A stretch of DNA of 39,720 bases from a phage: sequence record PZ618370.1; one strand, 5' to 3'. Position 1 is the first letter of the stretch; the number at the start of each line of letters is the position of its first letter. A program made the translations under genes and the position numbers. Positions 1 through 39,720 of this stretch are shown here, in pieces. A model generated the notes under the pieces. The model worked only from the letters and a program-made list of their open reading frames with translations. It was not told the origin of the DNA and did no database searches.

Positions 1-211
1 ATCGGATGACGACCAGTGAACCAATCAGTAGGTAGACCATAGGTTAGCCTGAATGGTGTTACCTAAAGTCCTTGACTACAGTAGCTAAGGTCAGTAGAGT
101 GAGTCTTTATCCACGTACTGACCTTAGCTACTGTAGTCAAGGACTTTAGGTAACACCATTCAGGCTAACCTATGGTCTACCTACTGATTGGTTCACTGGT
201 CGTCATCCGAT
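1..211. repeat. terminal foldback palindrome: arms 1-96 and 116-211 are exact reverse complements, 19-nt spacer 97-115
   Basis: Reverse complement of 1-96 written out by hand equals 116-211 base for base. Hairpin-end read-through or assembly artefact are both possible. Confidence 0.9.
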
Positions 212-242
212 GGTCTCAGACCTACGGTCCTTGACCTACAGT
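116..242 (+). repeat. left copy of direct terminal repeat (at least 127 bp)
   Basis: Identical to 39594-39720 at the window end; T7-like genomes carry direct terminal repeats. Confidence 0.8.
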
Positions 243-484: not shown

Positions 485-613
485 AACCATAAGTCACTAA
501 CCATAGGTCCTACAACCATAGGTCCTACAACCATAGGTCCTACAACCATAGGTCCTACAACCTACAGTCTCAACCATAAGACACCAACACCTACAGTCAT
601 AGACCTACAGTTA
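485..613 (+). repeat. tandem array of 15-bp unit AACCATAGGTCCTAC (4 perfect copies 499-558, degenerate copies on both sides)
   Basis: Direct reading of sequence; sits in the non-coding left leader, analogous to the repeated motifs in the T7 left end. Confidence 0.85.
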
Positions 614-1112: not shown

Positions 1113-1565
1113 ATGATTTACACTAACGAACCAGCCAACGTCTTCTATGTGCTCGTGTCTGCCGCTCGTGCTGAACATAGCGATACGCAAAACATGGTAC
1201 GCCAGTTAGACCTTAAGGCGCTGCTGCAAGCCGAACCTGAATACTACGGCGTACTTGAGTGTACGGGTCTTGAGGGATGCTACCGCGAAGAGGGTCAGGA
1301 CGCTGTAAGCACTGAGCGGACCTACCGTGTGCGCTGTGAGAAGCGCGCTCAGGCAATCAACGTGGCTCGTCTGGCCTGTAACGACTTTGAGCAAGACTGC
1401 GTGATGGTCTACAAGTCTCAGACTCACACGGCTGGACTGATGTTCTGCAAGGGGCAGGACGGCTACAAGACTACACGTCTGAACGGGACATTCCAGCAGG
1501 TCGATGCGCCTAAAGGTGAATGCTACACGAAAGATGCTGAAGGTCGCTTCTGGGAGGTGGTGTAA
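1113..1565 (+). CDS. 0.3: S-adenosyl-L-methionine hydrolase/lyase, T3 gene 0.3-type anti-restriction protein
   Basis: 150-aa ORF, first gene after the leader; aligns along its length with T3 SAMase as recalled (PANVFYVLVSA, GCYRE, RVRC, AQA.NVARLACN, QDCV.VYKSQTHTAGL). Confidence 0.8.
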   Translation: MIYTNEPANVFYVLVSAARAEHSDTQNMVRQLDLKALLQAEPEYYGVLECTGLEGCYREEGQDAVSTERTYRVRCEKRAQAINVARLACNDFEQDCVMVYKSQTHTAGLMFCKGQDGYKTTRLNGTFQQVDAPKGECYTKDAEGRFWEVV

Positions 1566-12229: not shown

Positions 12230-13933
<1,704 letters not shown>

Positions 13934-14173: not shown

Positions 14174-16345
14174 ATGTTTGACCTTAAGAGTATCTGGGGT
14201 TCTGACATCGAGACCAACGGTCTCCTTGATACAGTCTCCCAGTTCCACTGTGGGGTCCTGATTAACGCCGAGTCGAATGAGACCCTTAAGTACGGGGTAG
14301 CTCCGATGGTCGGTATCGTCGGTGGCTTCAAAGAGTATGTTCATAAAGTGGAAGAGATTGCCGCATCACCTGATGGTATGCTTGTCTTCCATAACGGTAT
14401 CAACTATGACGTCCCGGCTATAGACAAGCTGAAGCGTCTGTACTTTGGGAAACGTTTTAACTTCCCGAAACACAAGATGATTGATACCTTGGTGCTGGGC
14501 CGCTTGATGTATCCAAACATTAAGTTCTCAGACATAGGCGCGGTGAAAGCTGGTCGTCTGTCACCTAATATGATGGGACGTCAGTCTCTTGAGGCTTGGG
14601 GTTATCGTCTCGGTGAGATGAAAGGTGAGTACAAACACGATTACGTTGCCAAGTGCAAGGCTGAAGGTATCGAATATAAGGCCGGGGACGAATGGCTGTT
14701 CCCGTCTCAGGAGATGCTGGACTATAACGTTCAAGACGTTGTGGTCACACTGGCGTTGTTCAAGAAGTTCCTGACTGACAAGTATTACTTCCAGTCTGAA
14801 CAGTTCGCTTTCGACCAGATTTATGCGTTGCGTCTGGAACATGATGCTGCGTGGACCTGTGCGAAGATGGAACGTAACGGCTATCCGATGAACACCGAGA
14901 TGGTCGAAGGCTTATATCGTGAACTCACCGTCAAACGTGCAGAGCTGCTGGACAAGCTGCGTTCGACTTTCGGTAGCTGGTACGCACCAAAGGGAGGCAA
15001 GGAGTTCTTCAAGCACCCCCGGACAGGCAAGGACCTTCCGAAGTATCCGAGAGTCGTGTATCCTAAGGTAGGGTCAGTATTCAAGAAGCCGAAGAACAAA
15101 GCTCAACGCTTAGGTCTGGAGCCTTGCGAGTTCGACTCACGAGACATGATGGAGGGAGCACCGTTCACACCTATCACTTACGTTGAGTTCAATCCGGGGA
15201 GCGGAGACCACTTAGCGAAAGTCTTGATGGAGCGTGGCTGGGAGCCTGTAGACTTCACTGACACCGGGAAACCTGTAGTCGATGACGAGACGTTAGAACA
15301 CGTTAAGCTACCAGACGCAGAGGCTCAGGCTTGCGTAGAGCTAGTTCGTGAGTATCTGGAAGTCCACAAGCGCATCGGTCAGGCGGATGAAGGTAAGAAC
15401 GCATGGTTGAAACTTGTAGGTACAGACGGACGTATGCACGGTTCAATCAACCCATGCGGGGCAGTAACCGGACGTGCGACTCACAGTTCACCAAACATGG
15501 CTCAGGTCCCTGCTAACGGTGCTCCGTATGGTGAGATTTGCCGTGGAGCTTTCGGTGCAGCTTGGAACAAGACTAACGGTGAGCCAGACCCTTGGATTCA
15601 GGTTGGTGTGGATGCTTCAGGTCTTGAGCTGCGCTGTCTGGGGAACAGAGCGGCTCCGTTTGATGGTGGAGACTATGCGAAGACTGTGGTCGAAGGTGAC
15701 ATCCACTGGGCCAACGCAGTAAACGCTGGGTTAGCACCTAACGTCCCACGCGATAAGTCTAACCATGACCATGATGCTTTCCGTAACAACGCTAAGACGT
15801 TCATCTATGCGTTCCTGTATGGTGCAGGGGCCGCTAAGATTGGACTGATAGTTGGCGGTGGTAAGAAGGAAGGTGCTGCCCTGATGAAGAAATTCATTGA
15901 GGGTACACCAGCTATCAAGGATCTGCGAGAGGCTGTGCAGAACACGCTCATCTCAGAGTCCAAATGGGTAGACGGTGAGAACATAGTGAAGTGGAAACGT
16001 CGATGGCTGAAAGGTCTGGACGGTCGCCGCATTCACATCCGGTCGCCACACTCAGCACTTAACGCTCTACTTCAGGGTGATGGTGCGGTTGTCTGTAAGC
16101 ACTGGATTGTCGAGACCGAGCGTATGCTCGAAGAGGCAGGGTATGTCCACGGCTGGGAAGGAGACTTCGCGTACATGGCTTGGGTTCACGATGAGCTACA
16201 GATTGCGTGTCGTACTCAGGAGATTGCCGAAGAAGTCGTCAAGATTGCTCAACTTGCTATGCGTAAGGTGGGTGAGTTCTATAACTTTAAATGTGTCCTT
16301 GATACCGAAGGTAAGATTGGACCAACGTGGAAGGAGTGTCACTAA
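14174..16345 (+). CDS. 5: DNA polymerase (gp5, family A with 3'-5' exonuclease)
   Basis: 723 aa; VFHNG.NYDVPA, DTLVL.RL, EAWGYRLGEMKGEY, DYNVQDVVVT, RATHS.PN.AQ, DASGLELRCL, NAKTFIY.FLYGAG, YMAWVHDE match T7 gp5 as recalled. Confidence 0.96.
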   Translation: MFDLKSIWGSDIETNGLLDTVSQFHCGVLINAESNETLKYGVAPMVGIVGGFKEYVHKVEEIAASPDGMLVFHNGINYDVPAIDKLKRLYFGKRFNFPKHKMIDTLVLGRLMYPNIKFSDIGAVKAGRLSPNMMGRQSLEAWGYRLGEMKGEYKHDYVAKCKAEGIEYKAGDEWLFPSQEMLDYNVQDVVVTLALFKKFLTDKYYFQSEQFAFDQIYALRLEHDAAWTCAKMERNGYPMNTEMVEGLYRELTVKRAELLDKLRSTFGSWYAPKGGKEFFKHPRTGKDLPKYPRVVYPKVGSVFKKPKNKAQRLGLEPCEFDSRDMMEGAPFTPITYVEFNPGSGDHLAKVLMERGWEPVDFTDTGKPVVDDETLEHVKLPDAEAQACVELVREYLEVHKRIGQADEGKNAWLKLVGTDGRMHGSINPCGAVTGRATHSSPNMAQVPANGAPYGEICRGAFGAAWNKTNGEPDPWIQVGVDASGLELRCLGNRAAPFDGGDYAKTVVEGDIHWANAVNAGLAPNVPRDKSNHDHDAFRNNAKTFIYAFLYGAGAAKIGLIVGGGKKEGAALMKKFIEGTPAIKDLREAVQNTLISESKWVDGENIVKWKRRWLKGLDGRRIHIRSPHSALNALLQGDGAVVCKHWIVETERMLEEAGYVHGWEGDFAYMAWVHDELQIACRTQEIAEEVVKIAQLAMRKVGEFYNFKCVLDTEGKIGPTWKECH

Positions 16346-16533
16346 TGGGCCATTATGACATCGCATACGAAGAGTTCGCTGAAGAAACACGCAGGCGTGA
16401 AGAGCTACGTCAGTCGCGGTGCGAACATCCAGATTGGGTACTTGTCTACTGCACGCAGGATGGCAAGCCAAAAGTAACTCAGTGCAGACTGTGTGGAAAG
16501 ACCAATCACATTGAATCAAAAGGAGAAATCTAA
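16345..16533 (+). CDS. hypothetical Cys-rich small protein (62 aa)
   Basis: ATG overlapping the polymerase stop (TAATG) after SD GGAAGGAG; cysteines spaced C-x11-C-x10-C-x2-C. Track ORF starts at GTG 16327. Confidence 0.5.
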   Translation: MGHYDIAYEEFAEETRRREELRQSRCEHPDWVLVYCTQDGKPKVTQCRLCGKTNHIESKGEI

Positions 16534-16823
16534 TGGCTATGACCAAACGTATGCGAGTTTCGTTCTCGCTGGGTGCTGTGTTGTCAACTGAAAACGCGGA
16601 GAACTTCAAGAAGACTCTCTGCGAGCTGAGCCGTAAGGTCCTCAACGGAGAGAAGACCACTGGTTTTGAGCGTAAGGCGGTAGAGGTTGGTGTGACTGAA
16701 GGCCTGGAAGCTGTAGTCGAACTGGTTTTCAAGAAAGGCATCGTAGATGGGCTGAAAGAAGACCTGAGAAGTTACGCTGACCAGCCGAGCTTTGGTAACT
16801 TCCGGGTGGAGTTCAAGCAATGA
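16533..16823 (+). CDS. 5.5: gp5.5-like protein (H-NS-binding family in T7)
   Basis: 96 aa, MAMTK N-terminus and size/position as T7 gp5.5 (from memory). Confidence 0.65.
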   Translation: MAMTKRMRVSFSLGAVLSTENAENFKKTLCELSRKVLNGEKTTGFERKAVEVGVTEGLEAVVELVFKKGIVDGLKEDLRSYADQPSFGNFRVEFKQ

Positions 16824-17029
16824 GTGAATACATACGGGTCCTAGTGGCCCTTAAGTCCTGCCCGAAGACCTTTCAGTCAAACTATGTGCGCAACAACGCT
16901 GCACTTGTTGCTGAGGCTGCGAGTCGTGGACATCTAAGCTGCCTGTCTATGGATGGGCGTAACAACGGTGCGTGGGAAATTACGTCTGCTGGCACCAAGT
17001 TCCTAAATCAACATGGAGGCTGTCTATGA
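16820..17029 (+). CDS. 5.7: gp5.7-like protein
   Basis: LKSCPKTFQSNYVRNNA.LVAEAASRGH.SCL, GAWEIT..GT.FL match T7 gp5.7 as recalled. Confidence 0.8.
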   Translation: MSEYIRVLVALKSCPKTFQSNYVRNNAALVAEAASRGHLSCLSMDGRNNGAWEITSAGTKFLNQHGGCL

Positions 17030-17304
17030 ATCAAGACGTATCAGGACGCGAACTTAAGGTAGGACAGAAGGTTGCTTTCTGTCTGGCTGGAAAATCCTAC
17101 GCAATGTGTATAGGAGAAGTCGTCAGGGTAATGCCTAAGACGGTATCCATCAAGCATAAGACATTTATTCGCTGGAAAGGAGCTGCCGAGGAAGTCGAGA
17201 CGGTGCGTGCATTCTCTTCAGTGTGTATCGTTGAGGAGCCGAAAGTTTCCTTGATGCCAGCTACAGTCGCTATGGCTACAGGAGGTCTGGACGATGGGTG
17301 CTGA
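17026..17304 (+). CDS. hypothetical protein in the gene 5.9 slot (92 aa, not acidic)
   Basis: ATG 17026 after SD GGAGG, overlaps the 5.7 stop; T7 gp5.9 is a short acidic RecBCD inhibitor, this protein is basic/neutral (KVGQKVAF...GEVVRV). Confidence 0.5.
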   Translation: MNQDVSGRELKVGQKVAFCLAGKSYAMCIGEVVRVMPKTVSIKHKTFIRWKGAAEEVETVRAFSSVCIVEEPKVSLMPATVAMATGGLDDGC

Positions 17305-18166
17305 GAAGAAGAAGATAGCTCTTGTTCTTGATGGTGACTATCTGGTCTTCTCTTCTATGGCTGCTGCCGAGGACGAGACAGATTGGGGCGATGACATCTG
17401 GACCCTTATCTGCGACCACGAGAAGGCTCGCCGTATACTTGAGAACACCATCGCTGAAATCGTTAAGAAGCGCAAGGCGTGGAAAGACGCTAAGATTGTG
17501 ATGTGCTTTACTGACGATAATAACTGGCGTAAGGACGTGCTTCCTACCTATAAGGCCAACCGTAAAGGTTCTCGCAAGCCTGTAGGTTACAATAAGTTCG
17601 TAGCCGAAGTGATGGCCGACCAACGGTTCAACAGCTTCCTTCGTCCTACGCTTGAGGGTGATGACTGTATGGGTATCATCGGGACCCGACCTCAGATTGT
17701 CGGATGTGACCATGCGGTTCTGGTGTCCTGTGACAAGGACTTCAAGACCATCCAGAACTGTGAGTTCTTCTGGTTAACAACTGGTGAAATCCTGAGTCAT
17801 ACGACTGCCGAGGCAGACTACTGGCACATGGAGCAGACCATCAAGGGCGACACTACAGATGGCTACGGTGGTATTCCGGGGATGGGTGAGGACACCACTC
17901 GTGCGTTCCTTGACGAGCCGTACTACTTCGTGCAGGAGAGCCGTGAGCTTAAGACTGGTAAGAACAAAGGCCAGATTAAGACTGAGTGGAAGAAGTATCC
18001 TAAGCGTGAAGACATGACGCTGTGGGACTGCATGGTGACTCTGGCTGCTAAAGCTGGGATGACCGAGGAGGAACTTCTGGTCCAAGCTCAGGTAGCTCGT
18101 ATTTGTCGAGCATCTGACTATGACCCTAAGTCCAAGGAGGTCATCCTGTGGACACCATCCATGTAA
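17294..18166 (+). CDS. 6: 5'-3' exonuclease (gp6, FEN-like)
   Basis: 290 aa; position, size and acidic-cluster motifs (LVLDGDYLVF, CFTDDNNWRKDVLPTYKANRK, DGYGGIPGMG) typical of T7 gp6. Confidence 0.92.
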   Translation: MGAEKKKIALVLDGDYLVFSSMAAAEDETDWGDDIWTLICDHEKARRILENTIAEIVKKRKAWKDAKIVMCFTDDNNWRKDVLPTYKANRKGSRKPVGYNKFVAEVMADQRFNSFLRPTLEGDDCMGIIGTRPQIVGCDHAVLVSCDKDFKTIQNCEFFWLTTGEILSHTTAEADYWHMEQTIKGDTTDGYGGIPGMGEDTTRAFLDEPYYFVQESRELKTGKNKGQIKTEWKKYPKREDMTLWDCMVTLAAKAGMTEEELLVQAQVARICRASDYDPKSKEVILWTPSM

Positions 18167-23475: not shown

Positions 23476-24042
23476 ATGGCTCAATACATTCCACTGAATG
23501 CTAACGATGACTTAGATGCCATCAACGATATGTTAGCCGCTATCGGTGAACCAGCAGTCCTACAGCTTGACGAGGGGAACGCTGACGTCTCGAACGCTCT
23601 ACGTATCCTGCATCGCGTCAATCGTCAGGTCCAAGCTAAAGGCTGGAACTTTAACATCAACGAAGCAGCTGTCCTGACACCTGACATCCAAGACAATAGG
23701 ATTCGATTCTTGCCGTCATACCTTCGTGTAATGACCGCTGGGGCCACCAGCTACTACAGCAACATGGGTGGGTACCTGTACGACCTGTCCACCCAGTCAA
23801 CCACTTTCACCGACCCTATCACGGTAGAGCTTGTGGAGATGAAGCCATTCTCCGAGATGCCTGTGGTCTTCAGGGACTACATCGTAACTAAAGCTAGCCG
23901 TGAGTTCAACGCTAAGTTCTTCGGTAGCCCAGAGTCAGAGCTATACCTTCGTGAGCAGGAAGCAGAACTCTATCAGCAGGTTATGGAGTACGAGATGGAC
24001 ACTGGTCGCTACAACATGATGTCTGACATCGGGAGGGACTAA
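23476..24042 (+). CDS. 11: tail tubular protein A (gp11)
   Basis: 188 aa; A.ELSAVNDILA.IGEP, RIL..VNRQ.Q..GW.FNI, R.Y.VTKASR.FN..FFG.PE, MEYEMD.G.YNM match T7 gp11 as recalled. Confidence 0.9.
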   Translation: MAQYIPLNANDDLDAINDMLAAIGEPAVLQLDEGNADVSNALRILHRVNRQVQAKGWNFNINEAAVLTPDIQDNRIRFLPSYLRVMTAGATSYYSNMGGYLYDLSTQSTTFTDPITVELVEMKPFSEMPVVFRDYIVTKASREFNAKFFGSPESELYLREQEAELYQQVMEYEMDTGRYNMMSDIGRD

Positions 24043-24269
24043 TGGCTAGTCACAACCTGAAGATTCACCGCCAGCACTTTGGTCCGGTACAGCTAGGTCT
24101 AAAGACAGCAGAGCTGAGACTTAACGACCGGGACTTTAAGGTTGGCGATTGGCTTATCCTGAATGAATGGGACAACGGGTATACTGGACAACAGGTAGCA
24201 CGTAAGGTTGTCCACATTGCTGACGTTGGTGACATCGCTGAGGGATACGTTCTAATGAGTATGATTTAA
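24042..24269 (+). CDS. small ASCH/PUA-like domain protein (75 aa) inserted between tail genes 11 and 12
   Basis: Contains GLKTAELR, matching the ASCH signature GxKxxExR; ATG overlaps the gp11 stop; no counterpart in T7. Confidence 0.5.
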   Translation: MASHNLKIHRQHFGPVQLGLKTAELRLNDRDFKVGDWLILNEWDNGYTGQQVARKVVHIADVGDIAEGYVLMSMI

Positions 24270-24278
24270 GGAGGGCCT

Positions 24279-26636
24279 ATGCCGCTAATTACTCAATCAA
24301 TCAAGAACCTTAAAGGCGGCATTAGCCAGCAGCCTGACATACTGAGGTTCTCAGACCAAGGCGAGGCACAGATTAACTGCTGGTCATCCGAGAGTGATGG
24401 CCTCCAGAAGCGCCCACCTACAGTCTTCAAGCGCCGACTTAACATCGACGTGGGGAGCAACCCTAAGTTCCACCTTATTAACCGTGACGAGCAGGAGCAG
24501 TATTATATCGTATTCAATGGGTCCAACATTCAGGTAGTTGACTTGAGTGGTACTCAATACCCAGTGTCAGGTGCAGTAGACTACGTTAAGTCATCCAACC
24601 CACGGGATGAAATCCGTGTCGTTACCGTGGCAGACTATACGTTCGTAGTTAACCGTAAGGTTGTCGTCAAAGGTGGAAGCGAGAAGTCACACTCTGGCTA
24701 TAACCGCAAAGCACGAGCTTTAATTAACCTTCGCGGTGGACAGTACGGTAGAACCCTTAAGGTTGGAATCAACGGAGGAGTCAAGGTCTCGCATAAGCTA
24801 CCAGCAGGTAATGATGCCGAGAATGACCCACCTAAGGTTGACGCTCAGGCCATAGGTTCAGCTCTGAGAGACCTTCTTGTTGCTGCCTATCCAGACTTCA
24901 CGTTCGACCTTGGGTCTGGCTTCCTGTTAATCACGGCCCCTTCAGGGACTGACATTAACTCAGTAGAGACGGAGGATGGCTACGCTAACCAGCTAATCAG
25001 CCCAGTCCTAGACACAGTGCAGACAATCTCTAAGTTGCCTCTTGCTGCCCCTAATGGATATATCATTAAGATTCAGGGTGAGACCAACAGTAGCGCTGAT
25101 GAATATTACGTGATGTATGACTCCAACACTAAGACTTGGAAGGAGACAGTGGAGCCGGGAGTGGTCACTGGGTTCGATAATGCAACAATGCCACATGCTC
25201 TGGTGCGACAAGCTGATGGCTCCTTTGAGTTCAAGACGCTGGAATGGTCTAAGCGTGGTGCGGGTAATGACGACACAAACCCTATGCCTAGCTTCGTGGA
25301 TGCTGTGATTAACGATGTGTTCTTCTACAGGAACAGACTTGGGCTCTTGTCAGGAGAGAACGTAATCATGAGCCGTTCAGCCAGCTACTTTTCGTTCTTC
25401 CCTAAGAGTGTGGCGACATTGAGTGATGATGATCCTATTGACGTAGCTGTAAGTCACCCTAGAATCTCAATCCTTAAGTATGCCGTTCCGTTTAGCGAGC
25501 AGCTACTACTTTGGTCAGATGAGGTGCAGTTCGTGATGACAAGCTCAGGGGTCCTTACCTCGAAGTCTATCCAGCTTGATGTAGGCTCAGAGTTTGCCTT
25601 AGGTGATAATGCCAGACCGTTCGCTGTAGGACGCTCAGTCTTCTTCTCAGCGCCTCGTGGGTCATTCACCAGCATTAAGCGATACTTCGCTGTAGCAGAT
25701 GTGTCTGACGTGAAGGATTCTGATGATATCACGGGCCACGTGCTGTCCTATATCCCTAACGGGGTGTTTGACATTCACGGAACAGGGACTGAGAACTACA
25801 TCTGCGTCAACTCTACAGGTGCTTACAACCGAATCTACATCTACAAGTTCTTGTTTAAGGACGGCGTACAGCTTCAAGCCTCTTGGTCGCACTGGGAGTT
25901 CCCTAAAGCTGATAAGATTCTGGCGTCTGCGTCGATTGGCTCTACCATGTTCATTGTTCGTCAGCACCAAGGCGGCGTAGACCTTGAGCACCTTAAGTTC
26001 ATCAAGGAGGCAACTGACTTTCCATTAGAGCCATATAGACTCCACGTTGACTCCAAGGTGTCTATGGTAATCCCAATTGGCTCATATAACGCTGACACCT
26101 ATAAGACTACGGTCGACATCGGTTCTGCTTATGGTGGAAACGCCCCGTCTCCCGGTCGGTACTATCTGATTGACAGTCAGGGTGCCTATGTGGACCTTGG
26201 TGAATTGACCGACATCTCAACTGTGGTTATGCTCAATGGCGATTGGTCGGGACGTACAGTGTTCATCGGACGGTCTTATCTGATGTCCTACAAGTTCTCA
26301 CGGTTCCTGATTAAGATTGAAGACGAGAGCGGCACTCAGTCTGAGGACACTGGACGTCTACAACTTCGTAGGGCTTGGGTCAACTACAAGGACACTGGCG
26401 CTCTTAGACTCATTGTCAGAAATGGTGAGCGGGAGTTCGTGAACACCTTTAATGGGTACACCCTTGGTCAGCAAACCATCGGTACTACAAACATTGGTGA
26501 CGGGCAGTATCGCTTCGCCATGAATGGTAACGCATTAACCACGAGTCTAACCTTAGAGTCCGACTATCCTACCCCAGTGTCCATCGTTGGGTGTGGCTGG
26601 GAGGCGTCATACGCTAAGAAAGCTCGTTCCGTCTAA
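24279..26636 (+). CDS. 12: tail tubular protein B (gp12)
   Basis: 785 aa (T7 794 aa), SD AAGGAGGG, syntenic position. Confidence 0.9.
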   Translation: MPLITQSIKNLKGGISQQPDILRFSDQGEAQINCWSSESDGLQKRPPTVFKRRLNIDVGSNPKFHLINRDEQEQYYIVFNGSNIQVVDLSGTQYPVSGAVDYVKSSNPRDEIRVVTVADYTFVVNRKVVVKGGSEKSHSGYNRKARALINLRGGQYGRTLKVGINGGVKVSHKLPAGNDAENDPPKVDAQAIGSALRDLLVAAYPDFTFDLGSGFLLITAPSGTDINSVETEDGYANQLISPVLDTVQTISKLPLAAPNGYIIKIQGETNSSADEYYVMYDSNTKTWKETVEPGVVTGFDNATMPHALVRQADGSFEFKTLEWSKRGAGNDDTNPMPSFVDAVINDVFFYRNRLGLLSGENVIMSRSASYFSFFPKSVATLSDDDPIDVAVSHPRISILKYAVPFSEQLLLWSDEVQFVMTSSGVLTSKSIQLDVGSEFALGDNARPFAVGRSVFFSAPRGSFTSIKRYFAVADVSDVKDSDDITGHVLSYIPNGVFDIHGTGTENYICVNSTGAYNRIYIYKFLFKDGVQLQASWSHWEFPKADKILASASIGSTMFIVRQHQGGVDLEHLKFIKEATDFPLEPYRLHVDSKVSMVIPIGSYNADTYKTTVDIGSAYGGNAPSPGRYYLIDSQGAYVDLGELTDISTVVMLNGDWSGRTVFIGRSYLMSYKFSRFLIKIEDESGTQSEDTGRLQLRRAWVNYKDTGALRLIVRNGEREFVNTFNGYTLGQQTIGTTNIGDGQYRFAMNGNALTTSLTLESDYPTPVSIVGCGWEASYAKKARSV

Positions 26637-39563: not shown

Positions 39564-39604
39564 TAAGGTCAGTACGTGGATAAAGACTCACTCTACTGAC
39601 CTTA
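39564..39604 (+). repeat. palindromic hairpin element at the inner boundary of the right terminal repeat (11-bp arms TAAGGTCAGTA / TACTGACCTTA, 19-nt spacer)
   Basis: Same arms as 86-126, but the spacer is the reverse complement of the left-end spacer. Confidence 0.8.
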
Positions 39605-39720
39605 GCTACTGTAGTCAAGGACTTTAGGTAACACCATTCAGGCTAACCTATGGTCTACCTACTGATTGGTTCACTGGTCGTCATCCGATGGTCTCAGACC
39701 TACGGTCCTTGACCTACAGT
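39594..39720 (+). repeat. right copy of direct terminal repeat
   Basis: Identical to 116-242; runs to the last base of the window. Confidence 0.8.

What the first reader, a model, noticed from the sequence alone, without database searches (positions are those of the whole stretch)
17026..17304. Gene 5.9 slot is occupied by a non-acidic 92-aa protein
T7 gp5.9 is a short, strongly acidic DNA mimic that inhibits RecBCD. The ORF in the same position here is longer and basic to neutral (MNQDVSGRELKVGQKVAFCLAGKSYAMCIGEVVRVMPKTVSIKHKTFIRWKG...), so it is unlikely to act as a DNA mimic. The phage may lack a gp5.9-type RecBCD inhibitor or use a different mechanism. The adjacent 62-aa Cys-rich ORF (16345-16533, C-x11-C-x10-C-x2-C) is a second unassigned protein in this block.
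Basis: partly seen in the sequence, partly recalled or inferred. Interest (0 to 1): 0.5.

Follow-up and report, generated by a model that had tools for sequence, protein, structure and literature searches.

The report
Small phage beta-barrel gene, function unknown
The gene sitting where phage T7 keeps its RecBCD inhibitor is real but ordinary: a common small beta-barrel protein of unknown function (Pfam DUF7205), not a DNA mimic, which here carries a 20-residue tail acquired by recombination with a different gene cassette.

Summary
The ORF at 17026-17304 is a real gene: 92 aa, pI 8.4, with a strong ribosome-binding site and ATGA overlap with gene 5.7. It lies between homologues of T7 genes 5.7 and 6 in a K1F-type (Kayfunavirus) genome. 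It is not related to T7 gp5.9, which is 52 aa with pI 4.1. No gp5.9-type gene exists anywhere in the window.

Residues 1-71 belong to a catalogued phage-only family of unknown function (Pfam DUF7205/PF23835, phrog_2251). The predicted fold is an SH3-like (KOW/Tudor-type) five-stranded barrel, and none of 100 sampled relatives is acidic.

Residues 72-92 are a disordered tail. It matches the C-terminus of an unrelated, very acidic 149-aa protein that fills the same position in sister phages. The join lies at GTTGAGGAGC (17230-17239), and the tail carries the ribosome-binding site and start codon of gene 6.

Across 86 related loci this position is a hypervariable cassette site. DUF7205 is the commonest occupant (26 loci), and 24 loci are empty. 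DUF7205 sits beside a true gp5.9 homologue in phage JSS2 and in locus L075, so it is an independent accessory gene rather than a gp5.9 substitute.

Function is untested. My best guess is a stoichiometric binder of a host factor. Interest is low.

The parts
17026..17304 (+). Complete ORF: 92 codons plus stop (TGA 17302-17304). The finding itself.
   Evidence: phrog_2251 E 1.7e-21; 95.6% identical to SP7_0027
17015..17019 (+). Shine-Dalgarno GGAGG for the ORF. The ATG at 17026 overlaps the gene 5.7 stop (ATGA), indicating translational coupling.
   Evidence: read directly
17026..17238 (+). DUF7205 core, aa 1-71: SH3-like five-stranded beta barrel
17230..17239 (+). Mosaic junction GTTGAGGAGC. To the left the sequence is EcoDS1-like; to the right it is vB_EcoP_F-like.
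   Evidence: DNA alignment; segment identities
17239..17301 (+). C-terminal tail, aa 72-92 (PKVSLMPATVAMATGGLDDGC). Predicted disordered. Shared with the unrelated 149-aa acidic protein of sister phages.
   Evidence: pLDDT below 50 for aa 75-92; tblastn of aa 69-92; 90.6% nt identity to vB_EcoP_F
17280..17296 (+). Gene 6 translation start embedded in the tail: SD AGGAGG 17280-17285 and ATG 17294-17296
16820..17029 (+). Left flank: gene 5.7 homologue (69 aa)
   Evidence: 74% identity to T7 gp5.7, E 2e-35
17294..18166 (+). Right flank: gene 6 5'-3' exonuclease (290 aa)
   Evidence: 51% identity to T7 gp6; Pfam 5_3_exonuc_N
16345..16533 (+). Rare.

Best explanation
SHOWN. The ORF is a genuine class II accessory gene. 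It lies between the phage promoters at about 12160 and 18294 and is translationally coupled to genes 5.7 and 6. It encodes a member of the phage-only DUF7205 family, a roughly 70-residue, mildly basic SH3-like beta barrel. It sits in a hypervariable cassette site just upstream of the exonuclease gene. In this genome the core (aa 1-71) is fused in frame to a 20-residue disordered tail. That tail is the 3' end of a different cassette, the 149-aa acidic protein of vB_EcoP_F-type phages. The join lies at the short shared sequence GTTGAGGAGC, and the tail contains the Shine-Dalgarno sequence and start codon of gene 6. The protein is neither a gp5.9 homologue nor a DNA mimic, and the genome has no gp5.9-type gene.

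INFERRED. The protein most likely acts as a stoichiometric binder that neutralises or redirects a host protein (host takeover or counter-defence) through its barrel surface, independently of gp5.9 and of RecBCD. The tail most likely serves mainly to carry translation into the gene 6 start. I put about 0.9 on the identity, architecture and recombination parts and about 0.4 on the binder mechanism. The confidence value given is for the mechanism.
For: Identity:
- phrog_2251 match at E 1.7e-21.
- 45 database clusters of homologues, nearly all carrying precomputed PF23835 = DUF7205.
- 618 representatives at 50% clustering, mostly stand-alone proteins of 60-90 aa.

Fold:
- The AF2 core has pLDDT about 90.
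- BFVD returns only uncharacterised phage proteins.

Not a DNA mimic:
- pI 8.41.
- Family median pI is 8.9, with none below 5.
- No gp5.9 homology.

Cassette site. Among 86 loci that have both 5.7 and 6:
- 26 carry DUF7205.
- 24 are empty.
- 16 carry a 58-aa basic ORF.
- 10 carry the F149-type acidic protein.
- 8 carry another acidic family.
- 8 carry the gp5.9 superfamily.

Such hypervariable accessory regions are reported to be enriched in anti-defence genes (bioRxiv 10.1101/2023.04.06.535777, read).

Independence from gp5.9: JSS2 has the order 5.7, then a gp5.9-like gene (61 aa, pI 4.1), then DUF7205 (69 aa), then gene 6. L075 also has both.

Mosaic origin:
- The core is 95.5% identical to EcoDS1 but only about 71% to vB_EcoP_F.
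- The tail is 90.6% identical to vB_EcoP_F.
- The first 300 nt of gene 6 are 94.6% identical to vB_EcoP_F but 86.1% to EcoDS1.
- Only SP7 shares the 92-aa form, and the exact sequence is absent from the 15-billion-protein collection.
Against: No experiment exists for any DUF7205 member, and no paper mentions the family. No binding partner is indicated by any result here. The SH3-like fold is functionally promiscuous and is equally compatible with nucleic-acid binding. Reasoning from gene position is weak: in other phages the family also sits next to gp2, next to replication genes, or near dCMP deaminase and ligase. The tail peptide is better conserved than a pure coupling spacer should be, so it may have a function of its own.
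Confidence: 0.4

Rival explanations
1. Nucleic-acid-binding protein. The mildly basic SH3-like barrel binds DNA or RNA directly, as Sso7d-type chromatin proteins, KOW domains or the ProQ C-terminal Tudor-like domain do. It would act on phage replication or recombination intermediates, or on transcripts, near the exonuclease.
For: SH3-like barrel with KOW/Tudor neighbours. Family median pI is 8.9, and 69% of members are above pI 8. K38 and R61 are nearly invariant. 31 of 100 relatives give sub-threshold hits to Pfam Phage_ProQ_C_like. Relatives are fused to C-terminal zinc ribbons or occur in tandem. The gene always lies in DNA-metabolism gene blocks.
Against: Net charge is only +1.6. Some members are neutral to mildly acidic (pI 5.0-5.8). 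The best-conserved positions include an invariant Asp and glycines rather than a basic or aromatic surface. No significant sequence match to any nucleic-acid-binding family was found.
Confidence: 0.25
2. Host-transcription binder. As a free-standing KOW/Tudor-like domain, it docks on host RNA polymerase or on a NusG partner (Rho, ribosomal protein S10). It would cooperate with the host-RNAP inhibitors gp2 and gp5.7.
Against: The adjacency rests on about three independent contexts. In Pakpunavirus and Lyrsu01 no RNAP inhibitor is nearby.
Confidence: 0.15
3. Non-mimic RecBCD inhibitor. The protein replaces gp5.9 functionally by binding RecBCD in another way, as P22 Abc2 binds RecC.
For: It occupies the position between 5.7 and 6, where T7 has gp5.9. 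The window has no gp5.9-type gene and no other small, strongly acidic candidate. Abc2 shows that non-mimic RecBCD modulators exist (PMC9836394).
Against: It co-occurs with a bona fide gp5.9 homologue in JSS2, where the two genes are adjacent, and in L075. 24 of 86 related phages have nothing at all in the slot. The family is also present in Pseudomonas myoviruses and at other genome positions.
Confidence: 0.08
4. Chance ORF, or a mis-called start with no protein product.
For: None beyond its small size. The ORF listing also offers an upstream GTG start at 16972.
Against: Strong SD and ATGA coupling. Conserved in 215 phage records. Homologues start at the same MNQD/MSQD residues. The fold is predicted confidently.
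Confidence: 0.01

Closest known systems
DUF7205 (Pfam PF23835) / phrog_2251, e.g. EcoDS1 AS9_0028 (ACF15807.1, 72 aa), Peacock gp32, PAK_P2 gp160
   Same: Same family. The first 71 residues are 93-97% identical to the 72-aa Kayfunavirus proteins and 42-45% identical to the Pakpunavirus ones. The conserved positions are shared (D4, G7, G13, V16, K38, V40, R61), and in T7-like phages the position upstream of gene 6 is the same.
   Different: This copy has 20 extra C-terminal residues, taken from another cassette. Only SP7_0027 (QLF80640.1) shares this form. No family member has a known function.
T7 gp5.9 (RecBCD and MukBEF inhibitor, DNA mimic)
   Same: Same neighbourhood: after gene 5.7 and before gene 6, in the class II region. 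Small and non-essential-looking.
   Different: No sequence similarity (best window hit E 0.14, on the wrong strand). pI is 8.4 against 4.1. The predicted fold is a beta barrel against an acidic parallel coiled-coil dimer (PMC9836394). The two genes coexist in JSS2 and L075.
vB_EcoP_F gp33 (YP_009789104.1), the 149-aa acidic protein in the same slot
   Same: Its last 24 residues (IEEPKVPLMPYAVAMATGGLDDGC) are 83% identical to the tail here, and the DNA is 90.6% identical. Both overlap the gene 6 start in the same way.
   Different: The N-terminal 125 residues are unrelated and very acidic (whole-protein pI 4.26, net -19). It is itself uncharacterised.
KOW domains (NusG/Spt5) and Tudor domains (SMN, TDRD3, Sgf29)
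   Different: No detectable sequence relationship. It is a stand-alone domain with no NGN or other partner domain. There is no conserved aromatic cage.
Pfam Phage_ProQ_C_like (PF24203)
   Same: 31 of 100 DUF7205 relatives give weak hits (best E 1.6e-4), suggesting a distant relationship among small phage Tudor-like barrels.
   Different: All hits seen fall below the curated cut-off of 27 bits, and the window protein itself does not hit.

Membership tests
T7 gp5.9 family (DNA-mimic RecBCD inhibitor) | Sequence homology to gp5.9 | tested here: not met
   tblastn of T7 gp5.9 against the window gives a best E of 0.14, on the minus strand. An HMM built from 8 gp5.9-superfamily proteins, searched against all six frames, gives a best E of 4.7.
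T7 gp5.9 family (DNA-mimic RecBCD inhibitor) | Small and strongly acidic (pI about 4) | tested here: not met
   pI 8.41, net +1.6, against gp5.9 at pI 4.08, net -8.5
T7 gp5.9 family (DNA-mimic RecBCD inhibitor) | Helical coiled-coil dimer braced by an N-terminal strand | tested here: not met
   The AF2 model is an all-beta barrel with no helix of 4 or more residues. gp5.9 architecture is taken from PMC9836394.
T7 gp5.9 family (DNA-mimic RecBCD inhibitor) | Located between genes 5.7 and 6 | tested here: met
   However, DUF7205 lies downstream of a true gp5.9 gene in JSS2.
T7 gp5.9 family (DNA-mimic RecBCD inhibitor) | Binds and inhibits RecBCD | not testable with these tools
   Needs a nuclease assay, a T4 gene 2 mutant plating test, or a retron Ec48 trigger test.
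DUF7205 (PF23835) / phrog_2251 | Profile match | tested here: met
   phrog_2251 at E 1.7e-21 over aa 2-71. Homologues 76-93% identical carry precomputed PF23835.2. The local Pfam copy holds only version 1, which does not reach the window protein.
DUF7205 (PF23835) / phrog_2251 | Stand-alone domain of about 70 aa with the conserved D-x2-G...V-G-D-x-V...G...P-K-T-V...R pattern | tested here: met
   D4, G7, G13, V16, K38, V40 and R61 are all present in the window protein. Each is conserved in 83-100% of 100 relatives.
DUF7205 (PF23835) / phrog_2251 | Phage-only distribution, in early or DNA-metabolism gene blocks | tested here: met
   Every context seen lies on a phage contig: about 40-kb T7-like, about 93-kb Pakpunavirus, or 47-kb Lyrsu01.
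KOW domain family (NusG/Spt5/uL24) | SH3-like five-stranded barrel | tested here: met
KOW domain family (NusG/Spt5/uL24) | KOW sequence motif detectable by profile | tested here: not met
   No Pfam KOW hit for the window protein or for 100 relatives. uL24 appears only at E 0.4-0.5.
KOW domain family (NusG/Spt5/uL24) | Attached to an NGN domain or part of a ribosomal protein | tested here: not met
   Stand-alone 72-92 aa protein
Phage_ProQ_C_like (PF24203) | Profile match above the curated cut-off | tested here: inconclusive
   31 of 100 relatives hit weakly (best E 1.6e-4, below the 27-bit cut-off). The window protein does not hit.

The most novel reading that the evidence does not exclude
This reading has two parts.

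First, DUF7205 would be a new class of small phage inhibitor that disables a host hub by SH3-type docking rather than DNA mimicry. The hub could be RecBCD, RNA polymerase or its partners, or a defence system.

Second, the conserved tail (P-K-V-x-x-L-P-A-T-[VL]-A-M-A-[KT]-G-G) would be a portable C-terminal docking peptide rather than a coupling spacer. It would deliver unrelated effector domains to a common partner such as the gene 6 exonuclease. The effector domains are the two DUF7205 subtypes and, through a related second tail type, two acidic protein families.
Probability: 0.12. Interest if true: 0.6.

Novelty: new member of a known kind. Interest (0 to 1): 0.22.

Why it matters
The practical value is modest. 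The result shows that, in K1F-type and many other T7-like phages, the position between genes 5.7 and 6 is a cassette site with at least five unrelated small proteins. Most of these phages have no gp5.9, so conclusions about RecBCD evasion drawn from T7 should not be carried over to them.

DUF7205 is widespread: 618 clusters at 50% identity, 215 cultured phage genomes, and both podoviruses and Pseudomonas myoviruses. It is completely uncharacterised, so it is a reasonable candidate for screens of phage host-takeover or anti-defence proteins. The shared tail is a small, clean example of in-frame cassette exchange next to a translationally coupled essential gene.

Tried and rejected
- **gp5.9 homologue hidden elsewhere in the window:** rejected by tblastn and by a superfamily HMM on six frames.
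- **Other known slot families in the window** (PWSDELP acidic, 58-aa basic): absent. The F149 family hits only through the tail.
- **Another small, strongly acidic protein as an alternative DNA mimic:** none convincing. The acidic small ORFs are gp2, a 71-aa phrog_30192 protein with net charge only -5.3, the small terminase and similar.
- **Tail conservation explained by an RNA structure around the gene 6 start:** rejected; the fold of 17225-17320 has z -0.31.
- **Tail as a frame-shifted remnant of the N-terminal extension that gp6 has in T7 and Klebsiella phages:** rejected; there is no similarity in the gene 6 frame.
- **Sequence-level link to solved structures:** nothing below E 0.1.
- **Sequence-level link to KOW:** none.
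- **NCBIfam:** no hit.
- **Local Pfam:** only a sub-threshold CusF_Ec hit.
- **Literature on PF23835, phrog_2251 or the peptide sequence, and the supplements of the accessory-gene screen:** nothing.
- **afdb50 fold library:** unavailable.
- **The search for related loci:** failed with the 100-sequence alignment and gave one locus with P0043. The survey of non-5.9-slot contexts therefore rests on a few metagenomic contigs.
- **Sigma-70 promoter or intrinsic terminator inside the block:** none above chance.

Full report
**What is there.** The window is a complete T7-type genome of the K1F group (Kayfunavirus). Its closest GenBank relatives are 91-95% identical, and none is the same phage.

All genes run on the + strand. 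The local order is:
- primase-helicase, 12233-13933
- DNA polymerase, 14174-16345
- a 62-aa Cys-containing ORF, 16345-16533
- a gene 5.5 homologue, 16533-16823 (Pfam Phage_T7_55)
- a gene 5.7 homologue, 16820-17029 (74% identical to T7 gp5.7)
- the 92-aa ORF, 17026-17304
- the gene 6 exonuclease, 17294-18166 (51% identical to T7 gp6)

The ORF has a GGAGG Shine-Dalgarno 6 nt upstream. Its ATG overlaps the 5.7 stop as ATGA, and its last 11 nt overlap gene 6. Phage promoters of the type CTAAACTATCACTATAGG lie at about 12160 and 18294, so the ORF is inside the gene 4-to-6 class II transcription unit.

The protein has pI 8.41 and net charge +1.6. T7 gp5.9, read from NC_001604, is 52 aa with pI 4.08 and net charge -8.5. 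The one error is the cysteine spacing of the 62-aa ORF, which is C-x9-C-x10-C-x2-C.

**What the protein is.** Residues 2-71 match phrog_2251 at E 1.7e-21. The large protein database returns 45 clusters of homologues. Nearly all carry the precomputed Pfam accession PF23835, which the contig look-up names DUF7205. The local Pfam copy holds an older, narrower version that does not reach the window protein.

A profile search of 1.84 billion cluster representatives finds 618 relatives at E up to 0.001. Most are stand-alone proteins of 60-90 aa, with a few in tandem or fused to other domains. Among cultured phages, 215 records have a match. These include 130 Pseudomonas records, the sampled ones being Pakpunavirus myoviruses at 42-45% identity. 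All contexts seen are phage contigs.

The viral structure library returns only uncharacterised phage proteins. Thirty-one of 100 relatives give sub-threshold hits to Pfam Phage_ProQ_C_like, so the family probably belongs to a loose group of small phage Tudor-like barrels.

Across 100 relatives the median pI is 8.9 and none is below 5.0. The best-conserved positions are D4, G7, G13, V16, K38, V40 and R61. No paper mentions the family.

**The extra length is a borrowed tail.** Most close homologues are 72 aa and end ...CIVEEA, directly followed by gene 6. EcoDS1 is an example.

In the window the protein continues as ...CIVEEPKVSLMPATVAMATGGLDDGC. These last 24 residues are 83% identical to the C-terminus of a completely different protein in the same position in vB_EcoP_F, Pipis and many other phages. 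That protein is 149 aa, with pI 4.26 and net charge -19.

| Segment | Identity to EcoDS1 | Identity to vB_EcoP_F |
|---|---|---|
| Core | 95.5% | about 71% |
| Tail | not comparable (10 of 53 nt aligned) | 90.6% |
| First 300 nt of gene 6 | 86.1% | 94.6% |

The switch lies at GTTGAGGAGC (17230-17239), a stretch that both parental types share. In EcoDS1 the corresponding GAGGAGG sits just before the gene 6 ATG and probably serves as its ribosome-binding site. The tail contains the gene 6 Shine-Dalgarno (AGGAGG, 17280-17285) and ATG (17294).

Only phage SP7 has the same 92-aa form. The exact window sequence is absent from the 15-billion-protein collection. The simplest reading is an in-frame recombination between two cassette types, which left the DUF7205 core reading through the old 3' end into the gene 6 start.

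**The position is a cassette site, and DUF7205 is not a stand-in for gp5.9.** I collected 80 IMG/VR loci by their gene 5.7 and added the GenBank references and the window. That gave 86 loci with both 5.7 and 6.

| Occupant of the interval between 5.7 and 6 | Loci |
|---|---|
| DUF7205 (10 of these carry a tail) | 26 |
| Empty | 24 |
| 58-aa basic ORF | 16 |
| F149-type acidic protein | 10 |
| Second acidic family (PWSDELP...GDHWQGYETEF) | 8 |
| gp5.9 superfamily (T7, T3-like and GVDNWEGY-type) | 8 |

Five loci carry two or three occupants, which is why the column sums to more than 86.

Locus L075 carries DUF7205, the basic ORF and a gp5.9-type gene together. Salmonella phage JSS2 (Berlinvirus) has the order 5.7, gp5.9-like, DUF7205, gene 6. 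Its gp5.9-like protein is 61 aa with pI 4.09, and its N-terminal 30 residues are 47% identical to T7 gp5.9. Its DUF7205 protein is 69 aa with pI 9.6.

DUF7205 is therefore an independent accessory gene that tends to sit just before gene 6. In other T7-like clades it sits elsewhere:
- directly after the gp2 RNAP-inhibitor gene (L089, L095, L097), or one to two genes from it (L098, phTUNSm)
- in Lyrsu01, between polymerase fragments
- in Pakpunavirus, near dCMP deaminase and ligase

No member of the gp5.9 superfamily, nor of the other slot families, is encoded anywhere in the window in any frame. No other small, strongly acidic ORF stands out either.

**How it most likely works.**

*Shown:*
- It is a real, translationally coupled class II gene.
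- It is an SH3-like barrel of a phage-only family.
- It is not acidic.
- It is unrelated to gp5.9 and can coexist with it.
- It sits in a hypervariable accessory site.

*Inferred:* sites of this kind are described as enriched in anti-defence and host-takeover genes (bioRxiv 10.1101/2023.04.06.535777). The neighbours gp5.5, gp5.7 and gp5.9 all bind host factors (PMC5569994, bioRxiv 10.1101/262279, PMC9836394). My best guess, at about 0.4, is therefore a stoichiometric binder of a host protein acting through the barrel surface.

The rivals are:
- direct nucleic-acid binding (0.25), supported by mild basicity, conserved K38 and R61, and zinc-ribbon fusions
- a specific host-transcription target (0.15), supported by the KOW-like fold and adjacency to gp2 and gp5.7 in separate contexts
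- a non-mimic RecBCD inhibitor (0.08), weakened by the co-occurrence with gp5.9

None of these can be decided with sequence tools.

**An unexplained detail.** The tail is better conserved than its surroundings. The motif P-K-V-x-x-L-P-A-T-[VL]-A-M-A-[KT]-G-G recurs on both DUF7205 subtypes and on the acidic 149-aa protein.

A related tail (KLLAATVPAMSKAKAVSDE) is shared by DUF7205 and the second acidic family. Locus L084 keeps APKVAPLPATLAMAKVG, with synonymous third-position changes, even though its gp6 is only 49% identical.

The last nine or so codons are dictated by the gene 6 ribosome-binding site and start codon. The PATVAMA part is not. RNA structure does not explain it (z -0.31). It is also not a displaced gp6 N-terminus. 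It may be a functional peptide, or only a constrained coupling spacer.

**Verdict.** It overstates how unusual this is. The gene is a new member of a catalogued family of unknown function, and it is the commonest occupant of a known-variable region. Its one peculiarity is a recombination-derived tail.

Noticed in passing
window 17239-17301; also L003 1504-1572, L005 1690-1758, L084 about 2900-2970: A conserved C-terminal tail peptide (PKVxxLPAT[VL]AMA[KT]GG...) ends unrelated N-terminal domains just upstream of gene 6. It is kept, with synonymous changes, even in a phage whose gp6 is only 49% identical. RNA structure, and the gene 6 SD and start alone, do not explain it.
   Followed up: partly
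window 16345-16533: A 62-aa ORF with a helix followed by a zinc-ribbon-like sheet (C26, C36, C47, C50). It is present in only 3 of 50,697 phage records. In SP7 it is unannotated, and an antisense ORF is annotated instead.
   Followed up: partly
L003 1126-1575 (vB_EcoP_F gp33); L014 2707-3042; L066 2707-2991: Sister phages carry uncharacterised, strongly acidic proteins in the same slot. One is a 149-aa protein (pI 4.3, net -19) found in 174 phage records. The other is a 91-121-aa 'PWSDELP...GDHWQGYETEF' family. Both are plausible DNA-mimic candidates.
   Followed up: no
L099 1319-1710 (Salmonella phage JSS2): A gp5.9-like gene annotated as a RecBCD inhibitor lies directly next to a DUF7205 gene, upstream of gene 6.
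   Followed up: yes
window 24042-24269: A 75-aa ASCH-like 'RNA-binding' ORF (phrog_986, E 3e-35) is inserted in the late structural-gene region, directly before a 785-aa ORF (24279-26636).
   Followed up: no
window 116-242 and 39594-39720: A perfect 127-nt direct terminal repeat. The left copy begins 115 nt inside the window, so the deposited ends may not be the true genome ends.
   Followed up: no
window 499-573: A 15-nt tandem array, AACCATAGGTCCTAC, of about 4.5 copies near the left end.
   Followed up: no
GenBank MT350292 (hit H131): 'Enterococcus phage EFA-1' is 92% identical over 90% of the first 25 kb of this enterobacterial Kayfunavirus, so the Enterococcus host label looks doubtful.
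   Followed up: no
window 1113-1565: The early-region ORF (150 aa) matches phrog_2226, which is annotated 'SAM-dependent methyltransferase'; from memory this looks like the T3-type 0.3 gene. No strongly acidic Ocr-like ORF stands out in the ORF list, though no direct Ocr search was run.
   Followed up: no
proteins P0033, P0034, P0038, P0112; L015 2707-3042; P0058, P0068, P0126: DUF7205 relatives occur fused to C-terminal CxxC zinc ribbons, or as two to three tandem copies. P0071, P0131 and P0173 add a conserved N-terminal domain.
   Followed up: partly
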